From a virus (lineage: Duplodnaviria; Heunggongvirae; Uroviricota; Caudoviricetes): a stretch of DNA of 64,000 nucleotides. The notes under the pieces are model-generated. The model was not told the origin of the DNA, ran no database searches, and saw only the letters and a list, made by a program, of their open reading frames with translations. Shown here one piece after another: positions 788-12,303 of this stretch. The position numbers and the translations under genes are program-made. Where the stretch lies: IMG/VR virus record IMGVR_UViG_3300034107_000364; one strand, 5' to 3'. The first letter of the stretch is position 1, and every line of letters starts with the position of its first letter.

Positions 788-789
788 AA

Positions 790-2343: not shown

Positions 2344-3288
2344 ATGAATAAATTTATGAATGGTTATCACACTTATTATAAATTTGAAAATGAATTTAGA
2401 AAGAGCTATCATGAATATGAAGCAATTGATGTTTTAGCTCAATTAACTTCTATTCTATTTTGGAAAAAGAATTACGGTTCAATCAAACTATATTCTAATA
2501 CTGATCATTTAGATCTTATTAAAAAATATGGAATTGATAAAGAATATGATTTTATAGACACTAATTTACTGGATTCAATGCCATATAAAGATAAAGCATC
2601 AAGATATTGGAGTTTCTCTAAGATTCACGCTGCTAAGGAAATATCTAAATATGATAAAGAATTTTGTATAATTGATACAGATCTATGGATTAAAGAACCT
2701 AATCTACTTAATACAGATTCTGATTTTAGTTTATATCATGAAGAGCATTTCGATATAAATATAGGTTTCAATAATTATCATGATCCTATAAATTGGATGA
2801 ATGATATTAAAGAATTTGATTGGACATGTTGGCCCATGAACTGTGCTATTATGTATTTTAATAATAGAACTAAAGAGTTGATAGATTCTTGGTATAATGA
2901 AGTTACTAAAGTAATTGAATTAGACAAGAACCCTGATAATTTAAAAAATAAACGTAATAGTGCTATTTTTATAGAACAGAGACTATTACCTACTATTGCT
3001 AGAAAACTTGCAATAACTTGTAGTTCAATTAAACCAAATGCATTTTTGGTTAGAACTTTTAAAGAGAATATTGAATGGAATGAAAAATGGAAACCTTTTT
3101 TAAATTCATCAGATGAGAGTCTTAAAATTGAACATTCGATTATTCACATTTGGGGTAAAAGAATGAGATATAATGAAGATTGGACTAGAAAAAATGTATT
3201 GAAACAGATTCTAAGAGATTTACAACAATTTCCTAGAATAGAACAAAAATACGAAAAGTTATTTAATGAATGTTATAAATTAATTTAA
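2344..3288 (+). CDS. hypothetical protein (314 aa), possible GT-A-like nucleotide-sugar transferase
   Basis: ORF track start (TTG at 2305) overlaps tRNA-Thr, so first ATG at 2344 used; CIIDTDLW could be a DxD motif; weak. Confidence 0.5.
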   Translation: MNKFMNGYHTYYKFENEFRKSYHEYEAIDVLAQLTSILFWKKNYGSIKLYSNTDHLDLIKKYGIDKEYDFIDTNLLDSMPYKDKASRYWSFSKIHAAKEISKYDKEFCIIDTDLWIKEPNLLNTDSDFSLYHEEHFDINIGFNNYHDPINWMNDIKEFDWTCWPMNCAIMYFNNRTKELIDSWYNEVTKVIELDKNPDNLKNKRNSAIFIEQRLLPTIARKLAITCSSIKPNAFLVRTFKENIEWNEKWKPFLNSSDESLKIEHSIIHIWGKRMRYNEDWTRKNVLKQILRDLQQFPRIEQKYEKLFNECYKLI

Positions 3289-3471
3289 AAAGTGTAGCTC
3301 AGTGACATTAATGAGAGCAATCTTCAGTACTTCGCAATTTGCAAGGAACATAGACGTGACGGTAGGTTGGATTCCTCCCACTTTTTTTATTTAGATGGTG
3401 TCTCGGTACGCTCTGAAGAAATTCAACGACGAGGTCTCGGTAGGCAAAAGGCCTTTGATCCTACCCATATT

Positions 3472-3543
3472 GGTCCTGTAGTTAAACGGCTATAATGCAG
3501 CCCTGTCACGGCTGAGTTCGGAGTTCGATTCTCCGTGGGACCG
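3472..3543 (+). tRNA. tRNA-Asp(GTC)
   Basis: acceptor GGTCCTG/TGGGACC (two G-U), anticodon stem CAGCC/GGCTG with loop CTGTCAC, T-arm CGGAG-TTCGATT-CTCCG. Confidence 0.7.
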
Positions 3544-3912
3544 CAAGTTGATAATGAAAAAGTATTTTACGAGTATGCTAAATGGGACACTGCCAAAACC
3601 CAATAACCCATAGTTTAGCGAAAGTAAGAGAAAGACAATGGCGCATCAGGAACCTTAGAGGCCGCAATCTCAATTGGTATTTAGAAGACGAAGTGATAGC
3701 TTCATTTATCCTGCTCTGGTAAGAAATTTGGTCAATTTATCAATGATTACGCTTAAAACCAGTTCGCGTTAAGGTAACAAGTGGCGGCGTGCGGCGACTA
3801 TGAAACAGTAGTTGAGTCTTTTTAGAACAAGACATAAAAGAATTCGAAACCTTGGAATTATCAAATATTCCTAAAGCCACCACAGAAGGTGCAGTTGGTG
3901 ACCTTCTATTTT

Positions 3913-3984
3913 GGCCCCATCGTCTATCGGTTAGGACGCCAGGTTTTCATCCTGGAAAGTCGGGTTCGACTCCCGGTGGGGCTA
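3913..3984 (+). tRNA. tRNA-Glu(TTC)
   Basis: acceptor GGCCCCA/TGGGGCT, anticodon stem CCAGG/CCTGG with loop TTTTCAT, T-loop TTCGACT. Confidence 0.75.
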
Positions 3985-4235
3985 CTATTATCTTTTCTTA
4001 CTAATATGTCAATAGAACTATTTTTAAATAATTTATAAAAAAACACATAAATCATGAAACTTTTAAAAAGTTAATGATATATACTATAATAATACAAAAA
4101 ACAACAACGATGAAACGCAACAACTTACATATAAAATATTGTCTACAGATGATCAGCTGGATATTTAATCCGGGGGTTAATCATGGGCGTGTCTTATCTA
4201 TAAGTTGATAGTATAATTATTTCAACATTTAGTTA

Positions 4236-4270
4236 AACCAAGCCCATTAAAAAGCTTGGTTTTTTTTTGT
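4236..4270 (+). terminator. rho-independent terminator
   Basis: ACCAAGC-ccattaaaa-GCTTGGT hairpin + T9. Confidence 0.6.
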
Positions 4271-4285
4271 TTAAAATTTTAAAAC

Positions 4286-4356
4286 GTTTGGTTGGCCGAT
4301 CGGTTAGGCGCAGGATTGCAAACTCTGTAAGGTTGGTTCGATTCCAACACTAAACT
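4286..4356 (+). tRNA. tRNA-Cys(GCA)
   Basis: acceptor GTTTGGT/ACTAAAC, anticodon loop TTGCAAA, T-arm GTTGG-TTCGATT-CCAAC. Confidence 0.65.
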
Positions 4357-4394
4357 CAGAACAAAGAGTTCTTTGACATCTTGGTGAAAACGAT

Positions 4395-4467
4395 GGAGCA
4401 GTGGCAGATGAGGTCATTGCGCTGGACTGAAAATCCAGAGGAGTTGGATCGATACCAACCTGCTCCA
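4395..4467 (+). tRNA. tRNA-Phe(GAA)
   Basis: acceptor GGAGCAG/CTGCTCC, anticodon stem CTGGA/TCCAG with loop CTGAAAA. Confidence 0.8.
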
Positions 4468-4473
4468 CAATAT

Positions 4474-4544
4474 TGTCCTTTGGTCTAATGGCAGGACACG
4501 TGGTTTTGATCCACGCGGTGGAGGTTCGAATCCTTCAGGGACAA
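4474..4544 (+). tRNA. tRNA-Gln(TTG)
   Basis: U1-A72 acceptor TGTCCTT/AGGGACA (as in bacterial tRNA-Gln), anticodon stem CGTGG/CCACG with loop TTTTGAT, T-loop TTCGAAT. Confidence 0.75.
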
Positions 4545-4549
4545 CAATA

Positions 4550-4621
4550 CGGGATATAGTCTTGGGGTGAGACGCTTGCTTTGGGAGCAAGAGGCGGCAG
4601 GTTCGACACCTGCTATCCCGA
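4550..4621 (+). tRNA. tRNA-Pro(TGG)
   Basis: C1-G72 acceptor CGGGATA/TATCCCG, anticodon stem CTTGC/GCAAG with loop TTTGGGA. Confidence 0.8.
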
Positions 4622-4627
4622 CAAAAA

Positions 4628-4708
4628 TGTTCGTAACTTTTGAAAAATAATTACGAAAACGTTTTTTAGATTCAAAAACTTTGTGTATATTTACATATAA
4701 TTAATAAC
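4628..4708 (+). promoter_or_regulatory. terminator/promoter cassette, copy 4, inside tRNA array
   Basis: ATGTTCGTAACTTTTGAAAAATAATTACGAAAACGTTTTTTAGATTCAAAAACTTTGTGTATATTTACATATAATTAATAAC; ~35 nt upstream of tRNA-Gly, implying it drives tRNA transcription. Confidence 0.55.
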
Positions 4709-4742
4709 GAAAGTTCTTTGACATGTTGGAAATAACAAATAA

Positions 4743-4814
4743 GCAGATGTCGTATAATGGTCATTACTCCAGACTTCCAATCTGGAGATGAGAGTTCGAT
4801 TCTCTCCATCTGCT
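4743..4814 (+). tRNA. tRNA-Gly(TCC)
   Basis: acceptor GCAGATG/CATCTGC, anticodon stem CCAGA/TCTGG with loop CTTCCAA, T-arm GAGAG-TTCGATT-CTCTC. Confidence 0.85.
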
Positions 4815-5290
4815 CGAGAGAGACTGTTATTAATTCATAGGGCGTATAGAGTCGCTACATAGAATTAGACCTTAATTTTGAGACGTTTATGATTAGGTTC
4901 GCTACCTAATCAAAGATGCGATCCGAAACCTTAGTAATAAGGCAGCTCAAATTAAAAAGTGTTGGCTTCAGACTCCCAGTAGGGAAGTACACTTAAATAA
5001 AACAACAACGGGGAAAGTGTCGACTCGAGAAACGGCAAGTACCAACGACGGGAAGCGGTATCAATCAAACACCTCTACGTGGTGATACTAGAAATTGGTT
5101 ATGAACCTTGCGCAAGGAAAGCAACCAAAACCAAGTTTGAAAATGCATAGGTAACCGAAAGAATGTGGTTCGAGTCCACACCCGTAATAGCCAAAGGGTT
5201 GAAGCATTGAGGATGATGCATAGGTTATAACAGAGCTGCAGCTCTAGGATAGGTCTGGTTAAAGTAGGCAGTGCCAATACAAAAGGTTCG
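4815..5290 (+). other. tRNA-debris region: orphan T-arm/acceptor-like hairpins without cognate 5' halves
   Basis: GATTAGG-TTCGCTA-CCTAATC; TGTGG-TTCGAGT-CCACA followed by CCCGTAA with no pairing 5' acceptor; 59-nt mini tRNA-like GGATAGG...AAAGG-TTCGAAT-CCTTT-CTATCC. Confidence 0.4.
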
Positions 5291-5400
5291 AATCCTTTCT
5301 ATCCACAATTTAATAATTACCCCAGTATGATTGGTAAGCGTCAGAAAGTAACATCTGAGTGGCAGTGTAATTATTAAGAGGTAAGGAAAAGACTAAAAAT

Positions 5401-5497
5401 GATTATGAGGCCATTGGTTGGCGGCACCTCACAAAGGTTGAGTTGAAATACACTCTTTATTGTAAAGCTGAAATTGGTTCGAATCCAATCATAATTA
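5401..5497 (+). tRNA. atypical tRNA-like (type II, 97 nt), anticodon unresolved
   Basis: acceptor GATTATG/CATAATT, clean T-arm ATTGG-TTCGAAT-CCAAT, but ~29-nt variable region and poor anticodon stem; possible pseudo-tRNA. Confidence 0.3.
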
Positions 5498-5625
5498 CAA
5501 ATTCTAAGAGTAATTAACTTAGAACTGTCAGGTTCGAAACTGACGATTGATATTGGTGTAATGGAGCACGGAGGCCGTAATTGGAGCTCAGGTTTAAGGT
5601 TCGAATCCTTTTATATCAGCAATAT

Positions 5626-5699
5626 TCCTCGGTAGCTCAGTTGGTTAGAGCACCTGACTGTTAATCAGGGGGTCGTAAGTTCGAGTCTTACCCGGGGAG
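5626..5699 (+). tRNA. tRNA-Asn(GTT)
   Basis: acceptor TCCTCGG/CCGGGGA, D-arm TAGCTCAGTTGGTTAGAGC, anticodon stem CCTGA/TCAGG with loop CTGTTAA. Confidence 0.8.
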
Positions 5700-5850
5700 C
5701 AAACAAGGAAACAACCCCTGAGTTGATGTGGCCACATCCGGACTCAAGAGAAGTAAAGTTACCAGATGGGTGCGTAACGCCTTGGGTTATTATGACTTAA
5801 CAATGATACGAGCCTCCCAAAGTTCGCAAAATAACATAATAACCAAATTT

Positions 5851-5931
5851 GGGAGTGTTGAGCAACGGTTGCTTAGCGGACTGTAAATCCGTGGCCTTAC
5901 GGCGTTGGGGGTTCGAATCCCTCCACTCCCA
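5851..5931 (+). tRNA. tRNA-Tyr(GTA)
   Basis: acceptor GGGAGTG/CACTCCC, anticodon stem GCGGA/TCCGT with loop CTGTAAA, long variable arm, T-arm GGGGG-TTCGAAT-CCCTC. Confidence 0.8.
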
Positions 5932-5940
5932 CTATAATAT

Positions 5941-6011
5941 ACATATATGGTGCAATGGTAGCATGACGGTCTCCAAAACCGTTGATGGGAGTTCGAATCT
6001 CTCTATGTGTG
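5941..6011 (+). tRNA. tRNA-Trp(CCA)
   Basis: acceptor ACATATA/TATGTGT, anticodon stem ACGGT/ACCGT with loop CTCCAAA, T-arm GGGAG-TTCGAAT-CTCTC. Confidence 0.75.
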
Positions 6012-6205
6012 CAAATAATAAGTTGATATGCTGTGAACATTAATGTAGGCATACATTGATTAGGTGGGTTCGAATCCTGTTCAATAATTCCTATGTGGTG
6101 GAGCCAAGTAACAGATAACATATCATAGCCGGTATGGGTTGTGCACCTCGTCCGAGAAACCCTAATAGTTCCTAATAGTTCGGTATGGAACAACTTATTA
6201 TTAAT

Positions 6206-6279
6206 GGACTTGTAGCTCAGTTGGTTAGAGCACCGCACTCATAATGCGTAGGTCGTTGGTTCGAACCCATCCTGGTCCA
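6206..6279 (+). tRNA. tRNA with CAT anticodon (Met or Ile2), CCA encoded downstream (6280-6282)
   Basis: D-arm TAGCTCAGTTGGTTAGAGC, anticodon stem CCGCA/TGCGT with loop CTCATAA, T-loop TTCGAAC, 3' CTGGTCCACCA. Confidence 0.7.
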
Positions 6280-6283
6280 CCAT

Positions 6284-6355
6284 AGTCGATTAGTTTAACG
6301 GATAGAACACCCGACTACGGATCGGGAGATAAGGGTTCGAATCCTTTATTGACTA
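6284..6355 (+). tRNA. tRNA-Arg(ACG)
   Basis: acceptor AGTCGAT/ATTGACT, anticodon stem CCCGA/TCGGG with loop CTACGGA, T-arm AAGGG-TTCGAAT-CCTTT. Confidence 0.8.
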
Positions 6356-6365
6356 CAAATATATT

Positions 6366-6438
6366 GCGGGTTAAAGTTCTGGTGAACTTATCGGTCTCAT
6401 AAGCCGAATGAAGGGTAGTTCGATTCTGCCACCCGCTA
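6366..6438 (+). tRNA. tRNA with CAT anticodon (second copy; Met/fMet/Ile2 not distinguishable)
   Basis: anticodon stem TCGGT/GCCGA with loop CTCATAA, T-arm GGTAG-TTCGATT-CTGCC; acceptor has G-U at 1-72 and one mismatch. Confidence 0.55.
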
Positions 6439-6443
6439 CTAAA

Positions 6444-6517
6444 TTGCGAAATGGTAGAGTTGGTTTCTTACGGTGCTCTCATAAGGCATAGACACAGGTT
6501 CGAGTCCTGTTTTCGCA
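6444..6517 (+). tRNA. tRNA with CAT anticodon (third copy, weaker)
   Basis: acceptor TGCGAAA/TTTCGCA, anticodon loop CTCATAA flanked by stem with 2 G-U pairs, T-arm ACAGG-TTCGAGT-CCTGT. Confidence 0.5.
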
Positions 6518-6570
6518 ACAAAAGTTTTTAGGGTGGTTCTGGTTCTTCAAAAACGCTATCACCTCCACCA

Positions 6571-6644
6571 GACTTCGTAGCTCAGTTGGTTAGAGCATCG
6601 CACTTTTAATGCGAGGGTCGATGGTTCGAGTCCATCCGGGGTCA
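6571..6644 (+). tRNA. tRNA-Lys(TTT)
   Basis: acceptor GACTTCG/CGGGGTC, anticodon stem TCGCA/TGCGA with loop CTTTTAA. Confidence 0.85.
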
Positions 6645-6744
6645 CTTGCTTCACTCATAATACTGCGATCTCTCAGTTAAAAGCTGTCGTAGAGTAAAGT
6701 TATAGTCCAATATGGCTATAGGTTATGACAAAGTGAAGCTCCAT

Positions 6745-6819
6745 GCTTTCTTAGCTCAGTTGGTTCAGAGCGCCTCGTTTACACCGAGGAGGTCACAGGT
6801 TCGAACCCTGTAGAAAGCA
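6745..6819 (+). tRNA. tRNA-Val(TAC)
   Basis: acceptor GCTTTCT/AGAAAGC, anticodon stem CCTCG/CGAGG with loop TTTACAC, T-arm ACAGG-TTCGAAC-CCTGT. Confidence 0.85.
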
Positions 6820-6888
6820 CAGTCGGCGCCCAAAGGACGCAGGACCTGGCCAGAGATTTATTCTTGCAAACTCGATGCCGAAAGTCGA

Positions 6889-6915
6889 GCTGCCGATCTA
6901 CGGGATCGGCTTTAT
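6889..6915 (+). terminator. GC-rich hairpin + T-run (terminator-like) inside tRNA array
   Basis: GCCGATC-tacgg-GATCGGC followed by TTTAT; lies in an unusual GC-rich 90-nt island. Confidence 0.4.
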
Positions 6916-6997
6916 GCCCGAGTGGTGGAATTGGTAGACACACTAGATTTAGGATCTAGCGCCGAGAGGTTTGAGGGTTCGAGTCCCTCCTTGGGTA
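6916..6997 (+). tRNA. tRNA-Leu(TAG)
   Basis: acceptor GCCCGAG/CTTGGGT, D-arm GTGGAATTGGTAGACAC, anticodon stem CTAGA/TCTAG with loop TTTAGGA, long variable arm. Confidence 0.8.
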
Positions 6998-7000
6998 CTA

Positions 7001-7058
7001 TGTTCATTATAAATGAATGTTCATTGCCAATGAACACATGAAAATAATGAACACACAT
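7001..7058. repeat. cluster of 4 alternating TGTTCAT / ATGAACA heptamers (inverted repeats)
   Basis: tgttcattataaatgaatgttcattgccaatgaacacatgaaaataatgaacaca directly upstream of tRNA-His. Confidence 0.5.
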
Positions 7059-7132
7059 GGTGGTTATAGTGTTAGCGGTTAGCACGTCAGTTTGTGGTAC
7101 TGATAGCATGGGTTCGAATCCCATTAATCACC
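7059..7132 (+). tRNA. tRNA-His(GTG) with encoded G-1
   Basis: G-1 then GTGGTTA/TAATCAC, discriminator C, anticodon stem TCAGT/ACTGA with loop TTGTGGT. Confidence 0.85.
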
Positions 7133-7139
7133 CAAAATT

Positions 7140-7224
7140 GGAAGATTGTCAGAGCGGTCTATAGTGCAACTTTGCTAAAGTTGTGGATGTCACAGTCCCG
7201 AAGGTTCGAATCCTTCATCTTCCG
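7140..7224 (+). tRNA. tRNA-Ser(GCT)
   Basis: acceptor GGAAGAT/ATCTTCC, anticodon stem CAACT/AGTTG with loop TTGCTAA, long variable arm, T-arm GAAGG-TTCGAAT-CCTTC. Confidence 0.85.
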
Positions 7225-7329
7225 CAAAAAATGAAACTTTTTTAATTGATCAAGTATAATTATCAAATTAACAAAGTTCTTTAAAATATTAAAGGTTTCT
7301 TACAGCAATTAAAAAGCAATCAGAACCGG

Positions 7330-7420
7330 TACATTGTAGGTTCGAGTCCTACCTCTCCAACAACACAACTATGAAAACTTGGAGAGTGGTGAAATTGGTA
7401 AACACACTGGTAAGCAAAAA
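7330..7420 (+). other. tRNA halves in permuted order: 3'-half-like (T-arm + acceptor CTCTCCA) ~25 nt upstream of complementary 5'-half-like (TGGAGAG + Leu-type D-arm)
   Basis: GTAGG-TTCGAGT-CCTAC-CTCTCCA at 7336-7359 has no 5' partner upstream; TGGAGAG-TG-GTGAAATTGGTAAACAC at 7380-7406 has no 3' partner downstream; the two pair perfectly with each other; flanked by repeated ACAGCAA(A)T motifs. Confidence 0.35.
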
Positions 7421-7629
7421 CAGAAACCTGTAAATTCTTGGGATACCTACAGCAAATACACATCTTCAATCTATAAACTGAAAACCAACGTGTATCCCGT
7501 ATTTTTAAAATATAAAGGATGCTTCCAGCAAATTTAAAAACTTTTATTGGAAAAAGCAAATCAGCATCCTGTTATTTTATTCATTTAACCAGCCGGCTTT
7601 ATTAGATACATATATAAATATTACAATAA

Positions 7630-8322
7630 ATGAAAACACATATAATTTATCTAAGAGGCAATGAATTCTCAGAGACTATGGTAAAAGATACCATAAAGTC
7701 TTTAAATAAATTCGGTATCGAGTTTGAATTATTTGATGGAGTTGTAGGCAGAAAAGGCATTGAAGTTTTAAAATCTTATAATGCAAAACCTTCAGCGTAT
7801 GTTAATATGGTAGATTGGACCGATGGTACTATAGGTTGTTTAGCAAGTCATTATTTATTATGGGACGAGTGTTCTAAACAAGATCAGCCTTTTTTAATTC
7901 TTGAACAAGATGCAGTTTTAGTTAGAGATCCTAGAGAAATATTACACTTAATAGAAAATGCATGTCATTTAGATGCATATTTACCATTTAATAATTCAGG
8001 TTTTATTACAGAACATGAACACTTTGAAGCGTATAATGATGCTATTAAACTTTATACTAGCGGAGTTAAAAAACACCCTATTAGTAGATTTTATGGAGAT
8101 AAATCTATAACTGGAAGTACTTTTAGAGGTGCATATGGATATATAATAACTCCTAAAGGTGCCCAAGAAATCTTAGATTTTATAAATAAAAAAGGTATAT
8201 TTCCAGCAGATGCATGTTTATGTGAAAATGCCACAGATATTCAAAGAGCAAATAGTACATATGTTAGATTAAATCCATTTTTCGAAACATTGGACTTACA
8301 AAGAAAATTTTCATCAAGATAA
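7630..8322 (+). CDS. glycosyltransferase family 25 (LOS/LPS glycosyltransferase, Lic2B/LgtB-like)
   Basis: HIIYLRGNEFSE...GTIGCLASHYLLW...PFLILEQDAVL matches the GT25 signature. Confidence 0.6.
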   Translation: MKTHIIYLRGNEFSETMVKDTIKSLNKFGIEFELFDGVVGRKGIEVLKSYNAKPSAYVNMVDWTDGTIGCLASHYLLWDECSKQDQPFLILEQDAVLVRDPREILHLIENACHLDAYLPFNNSGFITEHEHFEAYNDAIKLYTSGVKKHPISRFYGDKSITGSTFRGAYGYIITPKGAQEILDFINKKGIFPADACLCENATDIQRANSTYVRLNPFFETLDLQRKFSSR

Positions 8323-8326
8323 CCAC

Positions 8327-8400
8327 AGTCATTTAGCTCAGTTGGTTAGAGCGCCTCGCTGATACCGAGGAGGTCGTAAGTTCGAGTCTTACATTGACTA
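8327..8400 (+). tRNA. tRNA-Ile(GAT)
   Basis: D-arm TAGCTCAGTTGGTTAGAGC, anticodon stem CCTCG/CGAGG with loop CTGATAC, T-arm GTAAG-TTCGAGT-CTTAC; starts 5 nt after GT25 stop. Confidence 0.8.
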
Positions 8401-8403
8401 CAT

Positions 8404-8430
8404 AAAAAAAGCCGCAATTGCGGCTTTTTT
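8404..8430 (+). terminator. rho-independent terminator
   Basis: AAGCCGCAATTGCGGCTT hairpin + T6. Confidence 0.7.
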
Positions 8431-8483
8431 AGTTTTATATATTTAAAAGAATATATAGATTATACTCAAAAATTAAAAACAAT

Positions 8484-9515
8484 ATGAAGATTAAAAGTTA
8501 CGAAGGATTTGTTGCTAATAAAAGATTAGTAGAATCTAGAAGACAAGTAATAATTAATGTGCTTGAACAATTCGAAGAAATTAAACCAATTATGAATGAA
8601 GCTCTACTTATAGTTGAGTTTGGTATATTTGATGAGGGTTTTGATAATCTTAACGAAGAAAACCTAATTAGCAAAATGAAGGCTAAATTTGATGCTGCTG
8701 TAGAAGTTGCAAAAGAAAAGGGTAAACAAGCATTGACAAAATCACAAGAAGTTATCATTAAATTAGGTGGTAAAATTGCTTCTATTATTAAACTTATTGT
8801 TGAGAAATTAAAAGAATGGGTTGACGCTGCATGGACAGCTGCAAAATCAGCATATGCATCAGGAGCACAAGCTAAGGTTAAAGAAATTACAGCTGCAATC
8901 GAAAAGAAATCAGAAGAAAGTAAAAATCTTTTATTAAAAGAAGTTAAACAAGGTAAACAAGTTGTATCTGCAACAGTTGGATGGATTACTAGTGGATTTG
9001 TTAAAGATACTGCAACCGCAGCTCAACAAGCCGCAAGTGAAGATGTTAAAGAAGCCTTTGAAATTGCAATATTAGATTCTATTAATGAAGCAGTTATCAA
9101 TGGAGATATTGATTTTACTGATCTATTAAAAGAAAGTGATGCAAATGGACCAAGTATTCCATTCGTATCAGCAATTGCACATAAAATGCACCATATTCCA
9201 CCATTTAATTTATTAGATAAAGTTAAACAAGCTGCTGAAAAAGTTGCTAAAGGAACTCTAGGTAAATTATCATATTATGCTACTGAATTAGCAGGAGCAC
9301 CAGGACCATTTGAATTTATTGCACTTGCAGGTATTATTGGAATTATTGCTGAAGTTCAAGTTAAAGGAGTTGCAAAGCACGCTCTATTACATGCAGTACC
9401 AGGTTTAGGTACGGTAGCATCTATTATATCAAACGTTGCAATGTTATTAGCTGTAATTGGTATCATTGAGGCTGTTATGGGTAAAGAAAAGGATGATGAG
9501 GAAACTGCACACTAA
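8484..9515 (+). CDS. hypothetical protein (343 aa) with CTS-like N-terminus and hydrophobic C-terminal segments
   Basis: MKIKSYEGFVANKRLVE resembles the MKHxKLFEEFxNE leader family; C-terminus GIIGIIAEV...AMLLAVIGIIEAV predicted membrane-active. Confidence 0.55.
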   Translation: MKIKSYEGFVANKRLVESRRQVIINVLEQFEEIKPIMNEALLIVEFGIFDEGFDNLNEENLISKMKAKFDAAVEVAKEKGKQALTKSQEVIIKLGGKIASIIKLIVEKLKEWVDAAWTAAKSAYASGAQAKVKEITAAIEKKSEESKNLLLKEVKQGKQVVSATVGWITSGFVKDTATAAQQAASEDVKEAFEIAILDSINEAVINGDIDFTDLLKESDANGPSIPFVSAIAHKMHHIPPFNLLDKVKQAAEKVAKGTLGKLSYYATELAGAPGPFEFIALAGIIGIIAEVQVKGVAKHALLHAVPGLGTVASIISNVAMLLAVIGIIEAVMGKEKDDEETAH

Positions 9516-9537
9516 TTAAAATAAATTTAAGGTACAT

Positions 9538-9610
9538 AGCGGGTTGGTAGAAGTGGTATCTCGCGAGCCTCATAAGCTCGAGGTCGGGGGTTCGAGTCCC
9601 TCACCCGCAA
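9538..9610 (+). tRNA. tRNA-Met(CAT), atypical D-arm
   Basis: anticodon stem CGAGC/GCTCG with loop CTCATAA, T-arm GGGGG-TTCGAGT-CCCTC, acceptor GCGGGT/ACCCGC with unpaired A1xA72. Confidence 0.6.
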
Positions 9611-9694
9611 CTAATTTCATAACTTCTTAAAATGAATCACATTCATGATATATAATAAAGTACTTATGTACTGATAAAAATATTATAACATGTA

Positions 9695-10006
9695 ATGAAA
9701 AATCCTTCTCCAAAAATTTTAACGTGGTTGCATAATTTAGCATCTGACGAAAACGGATCTCCATCTTCAAAAAGAGTAGTCGGAATACTGGCTGGTTTAT
9801 CCTTAATTTTCGTTTTAGTTTACAGCAGTTTACAAAAGAATGATATAGTTTTAAATGATACGATTATCAATGCGGTAGCATTACTTGCATTTGGTTGTCT
9901 TGGATTATCTTCTGTTGATAAATTTACAGCACTTAAAAAACAAGTTAAAGAGGGAACTTCTAATACAACAACTGAAACTCTAGTTGAAAATACAGAAACC
10001 AACTAA
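9695..10006 (+). CDS. holin-like small membrane protein (2 TM)
   Basis: 103 aa, two hydrophobic helices (VVGILAGLSLIFVLVY; AVALLAFGCLGLSSV), charged C-tail, immediately upstream of endolysin. Confidence 0.5.
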   Translation: MKNPSPKILTWLHNLASDENGSPSSKRVVGILAGLSLIFVLVYSSLQKNDIVLNDTIINAVALLAFGCLGLSSVDKFTALKKQVKEGTSNTTTETLVENTETN

Positions 10007-10008
10007 TT

Positions 10009-10467
10009 ATGGCAAAAATTACTAAAATAGGCCAAAAAGGTCTAGACTTAATCAAATCATCTGAGGGACTTTATTTAAAACCTTATTTATGCCCAGCAAA
10101 CGTACCGACAATCGGATACGGTAATACGTTTTATGAGAATAAAGCAAAAGTAACTTTAAAAGATCCTATTATTACAGAAAAACGTGCAGTAGAATTATTA
10201 TCATGGTCTCTTTCTAGCTTTGAACAGTATGTTGATGCATATTGTATAGATACTCTTAATCAAAATCAGTTTGATGCACTTGTAAGTTTTTGTTACAATC
10301 TAGGACCTGCTAATTTAAAATCAAGTACTTTACTTAAAAAGGTTAATGCTAATCCAAGTGATCCTACTATTAGAGCTGAGTTTTTAAAATGGAACAAGGC
10401 TGGTGGTAAAGCACTTGCTGGTTTAACTAAGCGTAGAACCGCTGAAGCAAATTTATATTTTTCATAA
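10009..10467 (+). CDS. endolysin, GH24 (T4/lambda-type lysozyme)
   Basis: SEGLYLKPYLCPANVPTIGYGNT ... FDALVSFCYNLG ... AGLTKRRTAEANLY typical phage lysozyme motifs. Confidence 0.8.
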   Translation: MAKITKIGQKGLDLIKSSEGLYLKPYLCPANVPTIGYGNTFYENKAKVTLKDPIITEKRAVELLSWSLSSFEQYVDAYCIDTLNQNQFDALVSFCYNLGPANLKSSTLLKKVNANPSDPTIRAEFLKWNKAGGKALAGLTKRRTAEANLYFS

Positions 10468-10754
10468 TGGCAGAGAATCAAACACCAACTCAAGGATTTA
10501 TAGACGTATTCGTTAGTAAATTAAAAGAACAATCATTTACTATTGTAATTATGCTAGCCGTAATTTGGTATCAAGGTGTGATGATGGAAGAGCGCGTAGC
10601 ATATTGGCAAAAGCTATATGAAGAACAAAAAACATATATTCAGCAAACTGACAAAGAAGATAAACAAATCTTATTGGATCGAATTAAATATCTTCAGGAT
10701 CAACAGGATAAATATACTCAAGATGCAATAGATGAATTAAAATCAAAAAAATAA
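10467..10754 (+). CDS. lysis-associated membrane protein (spanin/antiholin candidate)
   Basis: 95 aa, one TM (FTIVIMLAVIWYQGVMM) then coiled-coil; start overlaps endolysin stop (TAATGG). Confidence 0.45.
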   Translation: MAENQTPTQGFIDVFVSKLKEQSFTIVIMLAVIWYQGVMMEERVAYWQKLYEEQKTYIQQTDKEDKQILLDRIKYLQDQQDKYTQDAIDELKSKK

Positions 10755-10760
10755 TTAATT

Positions 10761-11366
10761 ATGAATTGTTACACTAAAGAGCAGATTGAAAAAGCTGTAA
10801 AATTAAAAAAATACGTTTGGTTTGAAGGTGCAAAAGACTTTGATGTTAATATCGTTGGCGTTAGAAATAATGCGGCAACAATTGCTGATAAAGTAACTAA
10901 TGTATTTGATGATTGTATGACCCTATCTTTTAAAGAAGGTGGTGTATGGAAATTTTATTGTTGGATGATTACAACCGATCCTGGAACAAAGGCAGTTAAA
11001 GAATTTTCAAATCCAAATGGAGTTGCAAGAGTAGTTCCTGGACAATATAGAGGAATGTGGGCTGTTGGTCTACATCAAGGTAAATACGAGGCAATGCGTC
11101 AAGTTAAACCCGTTAAAGTTTATCGTGATAAAAATAAGGATATGTCCTTTAATGAAACTGTCATACAAGAAGGTATTTTTGGAATTAATGGACATAGATC
11201 TAGTCCAACTAGTGAATCCATGTATGTGGAAAACTGGTCAGAGGGATGTCAAGTATTTAAGAAAATAAAGGATTTTAATGAATTTATGGTACTTATTAAT
11301 AAGGCCAAAGCAATTCACGGAAACGCATTTACATATACTTTACTAGAATCAACTGATATAGCATAA
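10761..11366 (+). CDS. hypothetical protein (201 aa)
   Basis: ORF following lysis cassette; no confident motif. Confidence 0.5.
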   Translation: MNCYTKEQIEKAVKLKKYVWFEGAKDFDVNIVGVRNNAATIADKVTNVFDDCMTLSFKEGGVWKFYCWMITTDPGTKAVKEFSNPNGVARVVPGQYRGMWAVGLHQGKYEAMRQVKPVKVYRDKNKDMSFNETVIQEGIFGINGHRSSPTSESMYVENWSEGCQVFKKIKDFNEFMVLINKAKAIHGNAFTYTLLESTDIA

Positions 11367-11415
11367 GATGAAACTAAATTGTAATTTTTAATACAATACC
11401 TAAACTATAGTATAA

Positions 11416-11619
11416 ATGGCTTTACCCTGCCCAAATTGTCAAACACCACTAGGAATAACATTAGATTTTATTGTTAAAAATCCTATGTCAGTTTGTCCAA
11501 GTTGTCAAACTGTATTTAATTTTGCAGTAAGTGAAGAAATCATAGAATCATTTAAAGAAGCTCTACAAGAAATTGAAGACATCAAAAAACAATATAACGG
11601 TTTAGTAAAATTCGGATAA
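11416..11619 (+). CDS. zinc-ribbon protein
   Basis: two CxxC pairs: CPNCQ ... CPSCQ. Confidence 0.5.
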   Translation: MALPCPNCQTPLGITLDFIVKNPMSVCPSCQTVFNFAVSEEIIESFKEALQEIEDIKKQYNGLVKFG

Positions 11620-11671
11620 GCTCTAGGATATATACTATAATAATATAAAACAAAATAAAAAACACTAAATT

Positions 11672-12277
11672 ATGGCAGCAGATATTTCAGCTCAATTCAC
11701 GGGTCTACCAATTGAAGACCTTATCGTTTCACCAATCGTCGGTATGGCGAAAGGTCAAGCAAAATTAAACGATGTAACATGGAAATACATCAACGAAGTA
11801 GCATTCGTAACAGACAAAGATGGTAATACTACCGCTAGATCTTTAGACGTACAAATGCAAAGAGTTATGACAGATCCTACTGATGGATCTCAGTCAGTTA
11901 AAACTCTTTATTCTAAAGTACCTATGTTACCTTTAGTTCCACTTCCAGCATTAGCAATCACATCTGCTGATATTGCTTTCACAATGGAAGTTAAAACATC
12001 AGAAGTTAACAAAGATTCTTCAGATTCTTCTGCAAGTTTTAGCGCTAGCGCATCTGGTGGATTTTGGGGTATGAAATACTCAGCTACTATGTCAGGAAGC
12101 GTTGCAGCTCACCACGAGAATACAAGAAGCACTGATAATTCAGCTAAGTATGATGTAAAAGTACATGCTGAGCAATTACCACCAACTGAAGGTATGTTAA
12201 AGCTTTCTGATTACCTAACTCAAATGTTAGAGCCATCATTGATCGAGCCTTCTAAGAACGCTAACGGTCCAGCATAA
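11672..12277 (+). CDS. hypothetical protein (201 aa), Ser-rich low-complexity centre
   Basis: followed by strong terminator; possibly paired-DUF (DUF2589/2590-like) with next gene - unverified. Confidence 0.55.
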   Translation: MAADISAQFTGLPIEDLIVSPIVGMAKGQAKLNDVTWKYINEVAFVTDKDGNTTARSLDVQMQRVMTDPTDGSQSVKTLYSKVPMLPLVPLPALAITSADIAFTMEVKTSEVNKDSSDSSASFSASASGGFWGMKYSATMSGSVAAHHENTRSTDNSAKYDVKVHAEQLPPTEGMLKLSDYLTQMLEPSLIEPSKNANGPA

Positions 12278-12303
12278 TATTAAAACAAATATTTTTTAAA
12301 TTT

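What the first reader, a model, noticed from the sequence alone, without database searches (positions are those of the whole stretch)
7330..7420. Orphan tRNA halves in permuted order (3' half before its complementary 5' half)
At 7336-7359 there is a perfect T-arm (GTAGG-TTCGAGT-CCTAC) followed by acceptor 3' strand CTCTCCA, but nothing upstream can pair with it. About 20 nt downstream (7380-7406) lies TGGAGAG-TG-GTGAAATTGGTAAACAC. This is a perfect complementary acceptor 5' strand with a Leu-type D-arm, and it has no 3' partner downstream. The halves are flanked by repeated ACAGCAA(A)T and AAAGCAA(T)CAGAA(A)CC motifs. One reading is a circularly permuted tRNA gene, known from a few algae and archaea and processed through a circular intermediate. 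The alternative is the product of a tandem duplication and deletion that left a pseudogene. Either would be unusual in a phage array.
Basis: seen in the sequence. Interest (0 to 1): 0.55.

Follow-up and report, generated by a model that had tools for sequence, protein, structure and literature searches.

The report
Phage Y-RNA-like tRNA mimic
The two "orphan tRNA halves" are one conserved small RNA, a tRNA look-alike with a closed acceptor end held in a hairpin that carries an ACAGCAA motif; its family sits beside genes for an uncharacterised Ro60-like protein in hundreds of phages and bacteria.

Summary
7336-7359 is a T arm plus acceptor 3' strand. 7380-7405 is the matching acceptor 5' strand plus a Leu-type D arm.

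It is not decay debris and not a permuted tRNA gene. The whole of 7294-7428 folds into one RNA:
- an 8-bp terminal helix, with UACAGCAAU next to its 5' strand;
- a 6-bp anticodon-stem-like helix with no anticodon loop;
- a T arm, a D arm, and a 7-bp acceptor stem closed by a 20-nt loop.

Nine related phage contigs keep every pair, with compensatory changes. Two simple hairpins with the same motif follow at 7440-7498 and 7517-7569.

The same design recurs in many unrelated large phages. In 35 of 120 loci retrieved by the RNA pattern alone, it lies on the same strand as a DUF2828/vWA gene. The predicted fold of that protein matches Ro60 (TROVE).

A covariance model built from the phage RNAs hits 43 of 80 independently retrieved bacterial DUF2828 loci, always on the gene strand. 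It also hits a mycobacteriophage and a Felix-O1-like phage.

The best reading is a Y-RNA/YrlA-like tRNA mimic for a Ro60-like protein. It has a new binding motif, and no Rfam family reaches threshold. The partner gene is not in this window. A resemblance to Dictyostelium Class I RNAs is striking but unproven.

The parts
7293..7300 (+). 5' strand of the terminal helix P (A-GGTTTCT). It pairs with 7422-7429.
   Evidence: The RNAfold minimum-energy structure contains it. All 7 pairs covary in 29 family members and 91.8% of cells are paired. GGTTTCT/AGAAACC changes to GGTTCC/GGAACC in L002, L003 and L007.
7301..7309 (+). Conserved single-stranded motif U-ACAGCAA-U, directly 3' of the helix P 5' strand. 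It is the proposed protein-binding site.
   Evidence: It is invariant in the 9-sequence subfamily. Across 80 bacterial DUF2828 loci retrieved without using the RNA, ACAGCAA occurs 218 times on the gene strand and 35 times on the other strand; 83 of those lie within 250 nt upstream of the gene.
7310..7324 (+). A-rich linker. Its 3' end together with the next bases (AGAACC, 7322-7327) nearly repeats the helix P 3' strand and could pair locally with 7294-7300 instead.
   Evidence: Read from the sequence. The local alternative pairing also changes in step in the L002-type relatives (TTCCTTA/TAAGGAA). Its function was not tested.
7325..7330 (+). 3' strand of the anticodon-stem-like helix (ACCGGT, tRNA positions 39-44).
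   Evidence: It pairs with 7406-7411 in the minimum-energy structure. All 6 pairs are kept in 9 of 9 sequences, with one G-C to A-U double change.
7331..7335 (+). 5-nt variable loop (ACATT; U48 is available for an A15-U48 Levitt pair).
   Evidence: Relatives L002, L004 and L007 have a class-II-like variable hairpin here instead, ATCGAAAGAT or GTCGAAAGAC, which differ by a compensatory change.
7336..7352 (+). T arm: GTAGG, loop TTCGAGT, CCTAC.
   Evidence: Rfam tRNA and YrlA partial matches cover it. The T stem is 99.3% paired across the family.
7353..7359 (+). Acceptor-stem 3' strand (CTCTCCA).
   Evidence: It is a perfect 7-bp complement of 7380-7386. L011 has CTCCTCA/TGAGGAG, which is two compensatory pairs.
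7360..7379 (+). 20-nt A/U-rich loop that closes the acceptor stem. It begins with A (the discriminator position) followed by CAA.
   Evidence: Family loops are 4-29 nt long, and 5 of 38 begin N-CCA (P = 3e-4).
7380..7386 (+). Acceptor-stem 5' strand (TGGAGAG). RNase P is predicted to cleave just 5' of 7380.
   Evidence: Pairing is shown. Cleavage is inferred by analogy with M. smegmatis YrlA, which has a 7-bp acceptor stem, is cut by RNase P and receives CCA (PMC4201824).
7387..7405 (+). U8, G9 and a Leu-type D arm (GTG, loop AAATTGGTAAA, CAC) containing G18 and G19.
   Evidence: It is invariant across the subfamily except for one A/G position.
7406..7411 (+). 5' strand of the anticodon-stem-like helix (ACTGGT, tRNA positions 26-31).
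7412..7421 (+). A-rich 3' linker (AAGCAAAAAC).
   Evidence: An A-rich segment precedes the helix P 3' strand throughout the family.
7422..7431 (+). 3' strand of helix P (AGAAACC-T) and the conserved (C)UGU tail.
7440..7498 (+). Second family member, a simple hairpin: GGGATAC, CT-ACAGCAA, a 36-nt interior, then GTATCCC followed by GT. It has no tRNA-like core.
   Evidence: Script scan. Model R1 scores it 27.5 bits, E = 0.002. The Rfam Class I model gives 16.3 bits. A counterpart with a different, still complementary stem is present in each of the five relatives scanned that are not near-duplicates of another.
7517..7569 (+). Third family member, a simple hairpin: GGATGCT, TC-CAGCAA, an interior, then AGCATCC followed by TGT.
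   Evidence: Model R1 scores it 30.5 bits, E = 5e-4. Rfam RF01414 gives 29.6 bits against a gathering score of 41.5. RNAfold z-score is -2.29.

Best explanation
Window 7294-7431 encodes one structured non-coding RNA of about 135 nt. It is a tRNA mimic built like the bacterial Y RNA YrlA. The two simple hairpins at 7440-7498 and 7517-7569 are its YrlB-like companions.

Anatomy (shown):
- The RNA's ends pair in a 7-8 bp helix P.
- The motif UACAGCAAU lies single-stranded next to the 5' strand of helix P.
- A 6-bp helix takes the place of the anticodon stem.
- On top of it sit a canonical T arm, a Leu-type D arm, and a 7-bp acceptor stem closed by a 20-nt loop.
- The nucleotides needed for the tRNA L-shape are all present: U8, A14, A15-U48, G18 and G19, and the T-loop UUCGA.

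Family (shown): this RNA belongs to a large family found in phages, bacteria and some archaeal metagenome-assembled genomes (MAGs). Its constant part is helix P plus ACAGCAA. Family members lie next to, and on the same strand as, genes for DUF2828+DUF7788 proteins. These are remote structural homologues of Ro60 (a TROVE ring plus a vWA/MIDAS domain).

Mechanism (inferred):
- The helix P/ACAGCAA module binds the Ro60-like ring, as the Y-RNA stem binds Ro60.
- The tRNA-shaped domain recruits tRNA-recognising enzymes or a nuclease or ligase. The resulting ribonucleoprotein would act in tRNA or RNA quality control or repair during infection.
- The RNA is co-transcribed with the tRNA array.
- Because its acceptor stem is 7 bp, RNase P probably nicks it 5' of 7380. 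The 3' end may then be trimmed and given CCA, leaving a two-piece molecule held together by base pairing.
For: 1. Structure.
- The minimum-energy fold reproduces all five helices.
- In 9 related sequences, 21 of 21 pairs are 100% paired and 3 pairs carry double changes.
- The terminal helix and the variable arm show further compensatory changes.

2. Family.
- A pattern scan found 48 matches (43 distinct sequences) with a downstream acceptor complement, from many unrelated 30-420 kb phage contigs.
- On 29 of them the covariation score is 0.808, against 0.215 when shuffled (0 of 500 shuffles reach it) and 0.08-0.20 when the partners are slid. All 7 helix P pairs and all 7 acceptor pairs covary.

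3. Partner gene.
- DUF2828+DUF7788 was the most frequent Pfam match among neighbouring genes.
- 35 of the 120 loci fetched by the RNA pattern alone carry the gene within the few kb held. The RNA is always on the same strand and mostly 20-700 nt away.
- An AlphaFold model (pLDDT 87) matches Ro60/TROVE structures over its full length. These were the top 10 PDB hits, with E down to 2.5e-8.

4. Independent test.
- In 80 bacterial and archaeal DUF2828 loci retrieved by protein only, ACAGCAA is 6-fold strand-biased and piles up just upstream of the gene.
- Model R1, built only from phage RNAs, gives 65 hits at E <= 0.01, all on the gene strand; the hits in bacterial loci fall in 43 of the 80.
- R1 also hits directly after the 'Ro-like RNA binding protein' of mycobacteriophage JoeDirt (65 bits) and inside the tRNA array headed by the DUF2828 gene of Felix-O1-like phage warpig (74 bits).

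5. Precedent.
- YrlA has the same order: stem, variable region, T arm, closed acceptor stem, D arm, stem. A partial YrlA model match covers 7334-7405.
- YrlA lies beside rsr, and its 7-bp-acceptor variant is cut by RNase P and receives CCA (PMC4201824).
- Phage Ro60 with its own Y-like RNAs is established for Thermus phage phiLo (PMC12135203).
Against: - No DUF2828, TROVE, RtcB or RNA-ligase gene lies in the 64-kb window, and no DUF2828 gene in the parts of the closest relatives that I could fetch. For this phage the partner is therefore assumed to be elsewhere in the genome or supplied by the host.
- No binding, expression or processing data exist. The role of ACAGCAA as a protein site rests on position and conservation only.
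- Thermodynamic support alone is weak (z = -1.37).
- The 29-sequence family set was selected for a perfect acceptor complement, which inflates the paired percentage for that helix.
- The RNA fails the curated YrlA model (16.5 bits against 69) and lacks its GNCGAAN0-1G motif.
Confidence: 0.7

Rival explanations
1. It is a genuine circularly permuted tRNA gene. The leader and trailer would be cut, the ends ligated into a circle, and RNase P and RNase Z would then open the acceptor end to give a decoding tRNA.
For: The gene order is that of permuted tRNAs. Re-permuting the halves in silico gives a cloverleaf that ARAGORN accepts. Many family members, though not this one, keep a canonical 7-nt anticodon loop, and 5 of 38 acceptor loops begin N-CCA. 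An RNA ligase gene lies near one partner locus.
Against: This member has no anticodon loop. The helix 7325-7330/7406-7411 runs straight into the linkers and the terminal helix. There is no bulge-helix-bulge motif, and bacteria are not known to have the splicing endonuclease (textbook knowledge). The same module also occurs as simple hairpins with no tRNA part, and as a closed hairpin inserted in unpermuted tRNA-like genes. Ligating the ends is therefore not needed to explain the family.
Confidence: 0.03
2. It is decay debris. A tandemly duplicated tRNA-Leu gene lost its outer halves and the remnant is a non-functional pseudogene.
For: Tandem duplication plus deletion is the accepted origin of permuted tRNA genes and may well be how this RNA arose. 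7412-7450 aligns loosely with 7313-7352 (read from the sequence). The CCA-like starts of some acceptor loops fit an origin from an inter-tRNA spacer.
Against: All 21 pairs are kept in 9 diverged relatives, with compensatory changes. The terminal helix covaries. The architecture recurs in unrelated phages and in bacteria next to one particular gene.
Confidence: 0.03
3. It is a free-standing tRNA mimic that works without a Ro60-like partner. It could be a decoy or sponge for host tRNA-binding enzymes or tRNA-targeting defence nucleases. After an RNase P nick and CCA addition it could instead be a two-piece, leucine-chargeable molecule acting on the translation machinery.
For: No partner gene lies in the window. 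The RNA sits in a 25-tRNA array. It has a perfect 7-bp acceptor stem, A at the discriminator position, a Leu-type D arm and A15-U48; from general knowledge these are the main E. coli LeuRS identity elements, and LeuRS does not read the anticodon. Related phages carry genuine two-piece, permuted tmRNA genes, so this gene layout is processed in these systems.
Against: Most family members close the acceptor stem with 4-8 nt and vary in tRNA type, so charging cannot be the family's common function. The invariant part is helix P plus ACAGCAA, which this model leaves unexplained. The association with DUF2828 is very strong wherever enough sequence is available.
Confidence: 0.15
4. It is a degenerate two-piece tmRNA.
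For: It shares the permuted layout with the real permuted tmRNA of relative L008 (5209-5362, RF04321 at 73 bits, tag ANDNFALAA). The spacer is of similar length and composition.
Against: Position 3:70 is G-C, not G-U. There is no tag reading frame, and it has a true D arm. ARAGORN and the Rfam tmRNA models find nothing here. L008 carries both a tmRNA and this element, so they are distinct genes.
Confidence: 0.01
5. It is a processing or punctuation signal, a terminator, or a DNA-level element such as an attachment or recombination site derived from tRNA fragments.
For: It lies at the 3' end of a tRNA array and upstream of a coding gene. The hairpins are followed by U-rich tracts.
Against: Compensatory changes preserve a complex five-helix RNA fold with tRNA tertiary-contact nucleotides. 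Hits are strictly strand-specific relative to the partner gene, 65 of 65. The hairpins have roughly 40-nt interiors, unlike intrinsic terminators.
Confidence: 0.05

Closest known systems
YrlA / bacterial Y RNAs bound by Ro60 (Rsr); Rfam RF02553; Chen et al. 2014, PMC4201824
   Same: - The 5' and 3' ends pair in a stem.
- The domain order is the same: variable region, T arm, acceptor-like stem closed by a loop, D arm.
- tRNA tertiary-contact nucleotides are kept.
- It is encoded on the same strand as, and close to, a Ro60-type ring protein.
- It is usually accompanied by a second, simpler RNA (YrlB).
- The variant with a 7-bp acceptor stem is cut by RNase P.
- It occurs in phages as well as bacteria.
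   Different: - The conserved stem motif is ACAGCAA, not GNCGAAN0-1G.
- The YrlA model scores only 16.5 bits here and 28-33 bits on relatives, against a gathering score of 69.
- The partner is DUF2828/DUF7788. It resembles Ro60 by fold only; a profile search of PDB sequences finds no Ro60.
- Many members keep a real anticodon hairpin.
- The gene occurs in two circular permutations.
- In this window no partner gene is nearby.
Dictyostelium Class I RNAs (Rfam RF01414; Kjellin et al. 2021, PMC7919456)
   Same: - Size of 42-65 nt, matching the simple hairpins here (53-59 nt).
- A 6-7 bp stem joining the 5' and 3' ends, with a 5' G preceded by A's.
- An 11-nt motif, CCUUACAGCAA, directly after the 5' strand. 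L002 has exactly CCTTACAGCAA.
- An A-rich interior.
- An end of CUGU.
- RF01414 is the best Rfam match to all three window elements (29.6, 24 and 16.3 bits).
   Different: - All scores are below the gathering score of 41.5.
- No Class I match was found in nine G+C-richer bacterial loci.
- Class I genes are eukaryotic, have a DUSE promoter, and their known binder is the RRM protein Rnp1A.
- Homology is unproven. I could not test whether Dictyostelia encode DUF2828.
Circularly permuted tRNA genes (Cyanidioschyzon merolae and other algae, some archaea); from general knowledge
   Same: The 3' half (T arm and acceptor 3' strand) precedes the 5' half (acceptor 5' strand and D arm), with a short spacer between them. 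The leader and trailer pair with each other.
   Different: There is no bulge-helix-bulge motif and no anticodon loop. The host is bacterial. Relatives include motif-only hairpins and unpermuted versions.
Two-piece tmRNA from permuted ssrA genes (Rfam RF04321)
   Same: It has the same permuted acceptor and T-arm layout. Genuine examples lie in related phage contigs (L008, L039).
   Different: There is no G3:U70 pair, tag frame or pseudoknots. A complete D arm is present. No model matches it.
Phage Ro60 with phage-encoded Y-like RNAs (Thermus phage phiLo; PMC12135203)
   Same: It is a phage-encoded Ro60-type protein with two adjacent small RNAs that it binds. A proposed role is recruiting host PNPase.
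   Different: It is a canonical TROVE protein, and its RNAs carry the CGAA motif. No tRNA-like module is mentioned in that paper (the term is absent from its text).

Membership tests
YrlA (Y RNA-like tRNA mimic, RF02553) | Reaches the curated Rfam gathering score (69 bits) | tested here: not met
   16.5 bits, covering only model positions 29-81, at 7334-7405. Relatives score 28-33 bits. No YrlA hit at gathering threshold in 15 partner-gene loci.
YrlA (Y RNA-like tRNA mimic, RF02553) | Topology: terminal stem, then variable region, T arm, closed acceptor-like stem and D arm, then back to the stem | tested here: met
   Minimum-energy fold, pair counts, and a YrlA model alignment in the same order.
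YrlA (Y RNA-like tRNA mimic, RF02553) | GNCGAAN0-1G motif near the 5' end (proposed Rsr contact; PMC4201824) | tested here: not met
   No such motif lies in 7294-7335. ACAGCAA occupies the equivalent place. The CGAAAG in the variable hairpin of L002/L007 is a GAAA tetraloop that is absent from the window.
YrlA (Y RNA-like tRNA mimic, RF02553) | Encoded within a few kb of a Ro60 (TROVE) gene and on the same strand | tested here: inconclusive
   Met at family level for a fold-level Ro60 homologue, DUF2828. Not met in this window, where no such gene was found in 64 kb.
YrlA (Y RNA-like tRNA mimic, RF02553) | Bound by the Ro60 protein in vivo; modified by TruB and DusA; cut by RNase P when the acceptor stem is 7 bp | not testable with these tools
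   This needs immunoprecipitation, modification mapping and cleavage assays.
Dictyostelium Class I RNA (RF01414) | Reaches the Rfam gathering score (41.5 bits) | tested here: not met
   29.6, 24.0 and 16.3 bits for the three window elements. 28.7-29.6 bits in relatives. No hit in 9 bacterial loci.
Dictyostelium Class I RNA (RF01414) | A 6-bp terminal stem with a 5' G, the 11-nt CCUUACAGCAA-type motif next to the 5' strand, AAG at the start and CUGU at the end (PMC7919456) | tested here: met
   aaaGGTTTCT-TACAGCAA...AGAAACC-TGT, aaaGGATGCT-TCCAGCAA...AGCATCC-TGT, and ttGGGATAC-CTACAGCAA...GTATCCC-GT.
Dictyostelium Class I RNA (RF01414) | DUSE promoter about 60 nt upstream; dictyostelid genome; binds Rnp1A | tested here: not met
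   The window is a bacteriophage-type genome: a tRNA array, a sigma-70-family factor, and all genes on one strand. The promoter and binding features do not apply.
Circularly permuted tRNA gene | The 3' half precedes the 5' half, and the two reconstitute a full cloverleaf | tested here: inconclusive
   The order and the acceptor, D and T arms are met. The anticodon loop is missing, so the cloverleaf is incomplete.
Circularly permuted tRNA gene | The leader and trailer form a bulge-helix-bulge motif for the splicing endonuclease | tested here: not met
   The ends form a continuous 8-bp helix followed by a 24-nt/10-nt internal loop.
Circularly permuted tRNA gene | A circular intermediate and a mature, joined, aminoacylated tRNA | not testable with these tools
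   This needs RNA-seq or RT-PCR across the junction.
Two-piece (permuted) tmRNA (RF04321) | G3:U70 alanine identity, a tag reading frame, and a match to tmRNA models | tested here: not met
   Position 3:70 is G-C. ARAGORN and Rfam find no tmRNA in the window. The true tmRNA of L008 scores 73 bits.
ACAGCAA/helix-P RNAs next to DUF2828 genes (family defined here, model R1) | A terminal or inserted 6-8 bp helix with NN-ACAGCAA 3' of one strand, an A-rich segment before the other strand, and an optional tRNA-like core | tested here: met
   R1 scores 98.8 bits for 7291-7432, which was in the training set. It scores 30.5 and 27.5 bits for the two hairpins. Independent members score up to 84.7 bits.

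The most novel reading that the evidence does not exclude
Helix P plus ACAGCAA marks a previously undescribed, very widespread class of Y-like RNAs. They would serve the DUF2828 branch of the Ro60 superfamily, which is present in at least 710 cultured phage genomes (including Felix-O1-like, Listeria P100-like and cluster-L mycobacteriophages) and in at least 559 of the bacterial and archaeal genome stretches scanned. The same RNA exists as a permuted tRNA mimic, as an unpermuted tRNA carrying an extra arm, and as a bare hairpin. The Class I RNAs of Dictyostelium share its stem, its 11-nt motif and its AAG/CUGU ends. They would be the eukaryotic members of this class, or convergent ligands of a related protein. 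That would give the long-unexplained Class I RNAs a testable biochemical partner.
Probability: 0.2. Interest if true: 0.9.

Novelty: new variant of a known kind. Interest (0 to 1): 0.72.

Why it matters
- It turns an apparent oddity into a member of a large RNA family with an identifiable protein partner of unknown function.
- DUF2828 proteins are annotated only as 'DUF2828 family', 'vWFA protein', 'RNA-binding protein', or, in mycobacteriophages, 'Ro-like RNA binding protein'. The fold match to Ro60, together with a dedicated, strand-linked tRNA-like RNA, gives a concrete hypothesis: a Ro60/Y-RNA-type particle encoded by many model phages. Felix-O1-like coliphages and mycobacteriophages are tractable systems for testing it.
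- It extends the Y-RNA/tRNA-mimic concept beyond canonical TROVE proteins.
- It shows that tRNA scaffolds are reused in both circular permutations.
- It warns annotators that 'tRNA fragments', and tRNAs with 40-nt insertions, in phage arrays can be functional ncRNAs.
- If the Dictyostelium resemblance is real, it opens an approach to Class I RNA function.

Tried and rejected
- blastn of 7200-7650 and megablast of 1-20000 against cultured phages found no relatives beyond individual tRNAs. tblastn of the 1192-aa ORF found none. The phage is known only from metagenomes.
- The window-wide significance of the short motifs alone is nil. YWCAGCAAWT gave 4 hits against 2.4 expected, and AAGCAAWNCAG gave 11 against 13.6. 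The signal comes from context and comparison, not motif counts.
- I looked for TROVE, DUF2828, RtcB or an RNA ligase among 77 window ORFs and found none. hhalign of the two unannotated ORFs above 500 aa that I tested (45518-47059 and 61422-63101) against the DUF2828 profile was negative.
- A profile search of PDB sequences with DUF2828 found no Ro60. Only the fold comparison did.
- The AlphaFold DB fold library was unavailable, so I could not check whether Dictyostelium has a DUF2828 protein. Literature searches for DUF2828, its InterPro/PIRSF names, and ACAGCAA with Ro60 returned nothing relevant. The 2011 paper on Class I binding proteins is not in the library.
- Walking along the 165-kb relative contig to look for a distant partner gene yields under 1 kb per scan, so I abandoned it. 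Other loci share too little with the window to help.
- The tmRNA, permuted-tRNA and debris readings are rejected as set out under the rival explanations.
- Other R1 hits in the window (1874-1978, 5590-5665, 6225-6327 and others) span a tRNA T arm and the next tRNA's D arm. They are the known tandem-tRNA artefact.
- The five ACAGCAA copies at 63.5-63.8 kb are codons of a Pro/Thr/Ala repeat in a protein.
Full report
**1. The observation**

The window is a phage-type genome fragment. It carries 25 tRNA genes, almost all between 1.7 and 9.6 kb. Genes lie on one strand. It encodes a sigma-70-family factor, an ATP-dependent DNA ligase and NAMPT.

Between tRNA-Ser (7140-7225) and a GT25 glycosyltransferase gene (7630-8322) lie 400 nt with no ORF.
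- T arm, 7336-7352.
- CTCTCCA, 7353-7359.
- A 20-nt A/T-rich spacer.
- TGGAGAG, 7380-7386.
- TG, then a D arm at 7389-7405 that matches the D arm of the window's tRNA-Leu(UAG) at 15 of 17 positions.

Neither ARAGORN nor Rfam calls a tRNA in this order. I joined the halves in tRNA order with an artificial 7-nt loop, and ARAGORN then called a 78-nt tRNA.

**2. What encloses the halves**

An Rfam scan at a permissive threshold gave two sub-threshold leads.
- YrlA (RF02553) aligned 7334-7405 to its T arm, closed acceptor hairpin and D arm, in that order.
- Dicty_Class_I_RNA (RF01414) aligned 7294-7430, 7441-7499 and 7517-7571. Each alignment consisted of a terminal stem, a CUUACAGCAA-type motif and a CUG tail.

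Reading the sequence with this in mind shows two further helices. GGTTTCT (7294-7300) is the exact complement of AGAAACC (7422-7428). ACCGGT (7325-7330) pairs with ACTGGT (7406-7411).

RNAfold's minimum-energy structure of 7291-7432 is exactly this five-helix fold: terminal helix P, an anticodon-stem-like helix, the T arm, the acceptor stem closed by the 20-nt loop, and the D arm. The z-score against shuffles is only -1.37, so thermodynamics alone would not establish it.

Two further hairpins follow, at 7440-7498 and 7517-7569. They have the same stem-plus-(A/C)CAGCAA design but no tRNA-like core.

**3. Conservation in relatives**

A pattern for the permuted junction found 10 IMG/VR contigs. 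Two more relatives came in through the neighbouring GT25 gene.

All keep the order 3' half, spacer, 5' half. On a 9-sequence alignment, all 21 pairs of the four inner helices are 100% paired. Three pairs show changes on both sides. When the partners are slid by one to three columns, pairing drops to 37-49%.

Compensatory changes I read directly from the sequences:
- Helix P changes from GGTTTCT/AGAAACC to GGTTCC/GGAACC.
- L011 has CTCCTCA/TGAGGAG in the acceptor stem.
- Where the window has a 5-nt variable loop, L002, L004 and L007 have a class-II-like hairpin, ATCGAAAGAT or GTCGAAAGAC, which is again compensatory.

This rules out decay debris.

**4. A large family**

I scanned IMG/VR for ACAGCAA followed 18-48 nt later by a T-loop consensus.

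Of 162 matches, 48 (43 distinct sequences) have a 7-nt acceptor 3' strand whose full complement lies 4-29 nt downstream. Only 7 look like ordinary tRNAs. In 41 of the 43 a 7-bp helix joins the ends, 105-155 nt apart, usually followed by YUG(U).

On 29 of them:
- Helix P is 91.8% paired and all 7 of its pairs covary.
- All 7 acceptor pairs covary.
- The covariation score is 0.808, against 0.215 when shuffled (0 of 500 shuffles reach it) and 0.08-0.20 when slid.

One caveat applies: the set was selected for a perfect acceptor complement.

Most members keep a short hairpin between ACAGCAA and the T arm that carries a canonical 7-nt anticodon loop, for example CTTGTAA, CTGTCAA or ATCATAA. In those, the one to three bases after the D arm pair with positions 42-43. 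They are complete tRNAs opened inside the 5' strand of the anticodon stem. The window member instead has the whole 27-31 strand after its D arm and has no anticodon loop, which is the YrlA condition.

Acceptor loops are 4-29 nt long, with a median of about 7. The window's 20 nt is at the long end. Five of 38 loops begin N-CCA (P = 3e-4), and ten begin N-CAA, as the window's does.

The same module also occurs in the other circular permutation. These are tRNA-model hits of 103-143 nt in which a closed 6-7 bp hairpin followed by NN-ACAGCAA is inserted between the D arm and the anticodon hairpin.

**5. The partner protein**

I ran Pfam on 112 ORFs lying near the RNAs. The most frequent families were DUF2828 (PF11443) and DUF7788 (PF25043), the latter a vWA/MIDAS-type domain with a DxSGS motif.

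An HMM of this protein finds it in 35 of the 120 loci that had been fetched by the RNA pattern alone. It is absent from the window and from its close relatives L001-L013. In every one of those loci the RNA is on the gene's strand, mostly 20-700 nt away, and often as a tRNA-like element plus a simple hairpin.

The AlphaFold model (pLDDT 87, pTM 0.81) matches Ro60/TROVE structures over its full length. These were the ten best PDB hits: the Thermus phage phiLo Ro60, D. radiodurans Rsr, Xenopus Ro and human Ro60, with E from 2.5e-8 to 1e-4 and probability 1.0. A sequence-profile search of the PDB does not find them, so the relationship is remote.

Database names for the protein are uninformative:
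- NCBI calls it 'DUF2828 family protein'.
- PHROG 850 calls it 'RNA-binding protein'.
- It is not in PADLOC.

It occurs in 710 cultured phage genomes. These include Felixounavirus phages, cluster-L mycobacteriophages (there annotated 'Ro-like RNA binding protein'), Listeria, Staphylococcus, Campylobacter, Vibrio, Aeromonas and Bacillus phages. It also occurs in at least 559 of the 600 bacterial and archaeal genome stretches examined.

**6. An independent test of the association**

I retrieved 80 bacterial and archaeal DUF2828 loci by protein alone.
- ACAGCAA occurs 218 times on the gene strand outside the gene and 35 times on the other strand, where about 25 would be expected.
- It is present in 74 of 80 loci.
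- 83 copies lie within 250 nt upstream of the gene, and 32 lie in the next 250 nt.

Covariance model R1 was built only from the phage RNAs. It gives 65 hits at E <= 0.01, all on the gene strand, scoring up to 84.7 bits; those in bacterial loci fall in 43 of the 80.

R1 also finds the element directly downstream of JoeDirt gp52 (65 bits). And it finds one inside the tRNA array that the DUF2828 gene heads in the Felix-O1-like phage warpig (74 bits).

In the window, R1 scores the element at 98.8 bits, but that sequence was in the training set. The two hairpins score 30.5 and 27.5 bits (E = 5e-4 and 2e-3). The remaining weak hits are tandem-tRNA artefacts.

**7. Most likely mechanism**

Shown:
- The fold and its conservation.
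- Membership in the family.
- The family's linkage to a Ro60-fold protein.

Inferred, by analogy with Ro60 and its Y RNAs:
- In YrlA, the stem binds Rsr and the tRNA-like module is recognised by tRNA enzymes. M. smegmatis YrlA has a 7-bp acceptor stem, is cut by RNase P and gains CCA (PMC4201824).
- Thermus phage Ro60 binds two phage-encoded Y-like RNAs and engages host PNPase (PMC12135203).
- By analogy, helix P plus ACAGCAA would be the protein-binding module and the tRNA-shaped domain the effector-recruiting module.
- The particle would act on tRNA or other structured RNA during infection. This fits its position in tRNA arrays and the RNA ligase gene near one partner locus.
- For this member I predict co-transcription with the array and an RNase P nick 5' of 7380.

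The main weakness is that no DUF2828, TROVE, RtcB or RNA-ligase gene lies in these 64 kb. I could not reach the rest of the genome. A partner-independent role, as a decoy or as a Leu-chargeable two-piece molecule, therefore remains possible.

**8. Comparison with known systems**

The element works like YrlA but is not a YrlA by Rfam's criteria. It scores 16.5 bits against 69, lacks the GNCGAAN0-1G motif, and has a different protein family as partner.

It is not a permuted tRNA gene in the algal or archaeal sense, because it has no bulge-helix-bulge motif and no anticodon loop.

It is not a tmRNA, although relatives do encode genuine permuted tmRNAs.

Its helix P module shares every descriptive hallmark of Dictyostelium Class I RNAs (PMC7919456): the AAG start, the 5' G, the 6-7 bp stem, CCUUACAGCAA, and the CUGU end. 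But all scores stay below Rfam's threshold. G+C-richer bacterial members do not hit the Class I model. I could not test whether dictyostelids have a DUF2828 protein. I treat this as an intriguing lead, not a finding.

**9. Novelty and verdict**

No Rfam 15 family reaches threshold on these RNAs. The searchable literature contains nothing on DUF2828-linked RNAs.

The kind of system is known: a tRNA-mimicking Y-like RNA paired with a Ro60-type protein, including in phages. This motif, this partner family, the two gene permutations and the breadth of distribution appear to be new. Hence 'new variant of a known kind'.

Interest is fairly high, because the locus points to a widespread, experimentally tractable ribonucleoprotein of unknown function.

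Noticed in passing
L049 507-620, L084 4886-5003, L075 11133-11246(-), L067 8080-8193(-), L017 2407-2520 and 3012-3114, L120 176-289, L039 10274-10386 and others: These are unpermuted tRNA-like genes of 103-143 nt that pass the Rfam tRNA threshold. Each carries an insertion of about 40 nt between the D arm and the anticodon hairpin: an A-rich spacer, a closed 6-7 bp hairpin, then NN-ACAGCAA. They are the other circular permutation of the window-type RNA. Most lie next to DUF2828 genes. Whether they are charged and decode is unknown.
   Followed up: partly
window 2331-3279 compared with L012 4713-4853: The close relative L012 (about 93% nt identity) has a second permuted tRNA-like ACAGCAA element after tRNA-Thr (L012 4722-4846, YrlA model 33.5 bits). 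In the window that segment is replaced by a 949-nt insertion carrying ORF 2305-3288 (327 aa, TTG start, no Pfam or PHROG match). It may be a mobile gene that displaced the RNA.
   Followed up: partly
window 6366-6436: An unannotated tRNA-like gene lies between tRNA-Arg and tRNA-Met. It has a 6-bp acceptor stem, a 6-bp D stem with a 4-nt loop, the anticodon loop CUCAUAA (CAU) and a normal T arm. It scores 36 bits on the Rfam tRNA-Sec model (gathering score 47) and ARAGORN misses it. Its RNAfold z-score is -2.87. It would be a fourth CAU species in the array.
   Followed up: partly
L008 5209-5362(-); L039 7967-8218: Phages that carry this RNA family also encode genuine two-piece (circularly permuted) tmRNA genes. 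L008 scores 73 bits on RF04321, has the tag ANDNFALAA, G3:U70, an encoded CCA and a 17-nt A/T spacer. The window itself has no tmRNA.
   Followed up: partly
window 7294-7300 with 7322-7327 (and L002-type TTCCTTA/TAAGGAA): The 5' strand of helix P can pair either with the distal 3' strand (7422-7428) or with a nearby near-copy (AGAACC). Both partners change in step with the 5' strand in relatives. This may be a relic of a simple hairpin into which the tRNA-like part was added, or an alternative conformation.
   Followed up: no
38 distinct family members (loci L001-L130): Five of 38 acceptor-closing loops begin with N73-CCA (P = 3e-4), and ten begin N-CAA, including the window's. This suggests either descent from tRNA 3' ends or real use of the acceptor end after RNase P cleavage.
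   Followed up: partly
window about 5163-5181: There is another isolated T-arm-like hairpin (TGTGG-TTCGAGT-CCACA) in the 730-nt gene-free gap between tRNA-Gly and tRNA-Ile. It has no convincing acceptor partner, and model R1 gives only 19.3 bits (E = 0.1). It may be true debris, since relative L012 has extra tRNA genes in this region.
   Followed up: no
window 63128-64000: An ORF runs off the window end and contains long tandem Pro/Thr/Ala-rich repeats (PTATPVP-type). These repeats account for the five ACAGCAA strings there.
   Followed up: no
L134 466-1572: An RNA ligase gene (PF09414 plus the PHA02142 OB domain) lies 4.5 kb upstream of a DUF2828 gene and its RNAs in a 214-kb phage contig. 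This hints at an RNA-repair context.
   Followed up: no
L141, L144 (Promethearchaeota MAG contigs): DUF2828 genes with upstream ACAGCAA elements also occur on contigs binned as Asgard archaea. L144 2761-2885 is a permuted tRNA-like element whose acceptor loop begins with A-CCA. These could be viral or mis-binned contigs.
   Followed up: no
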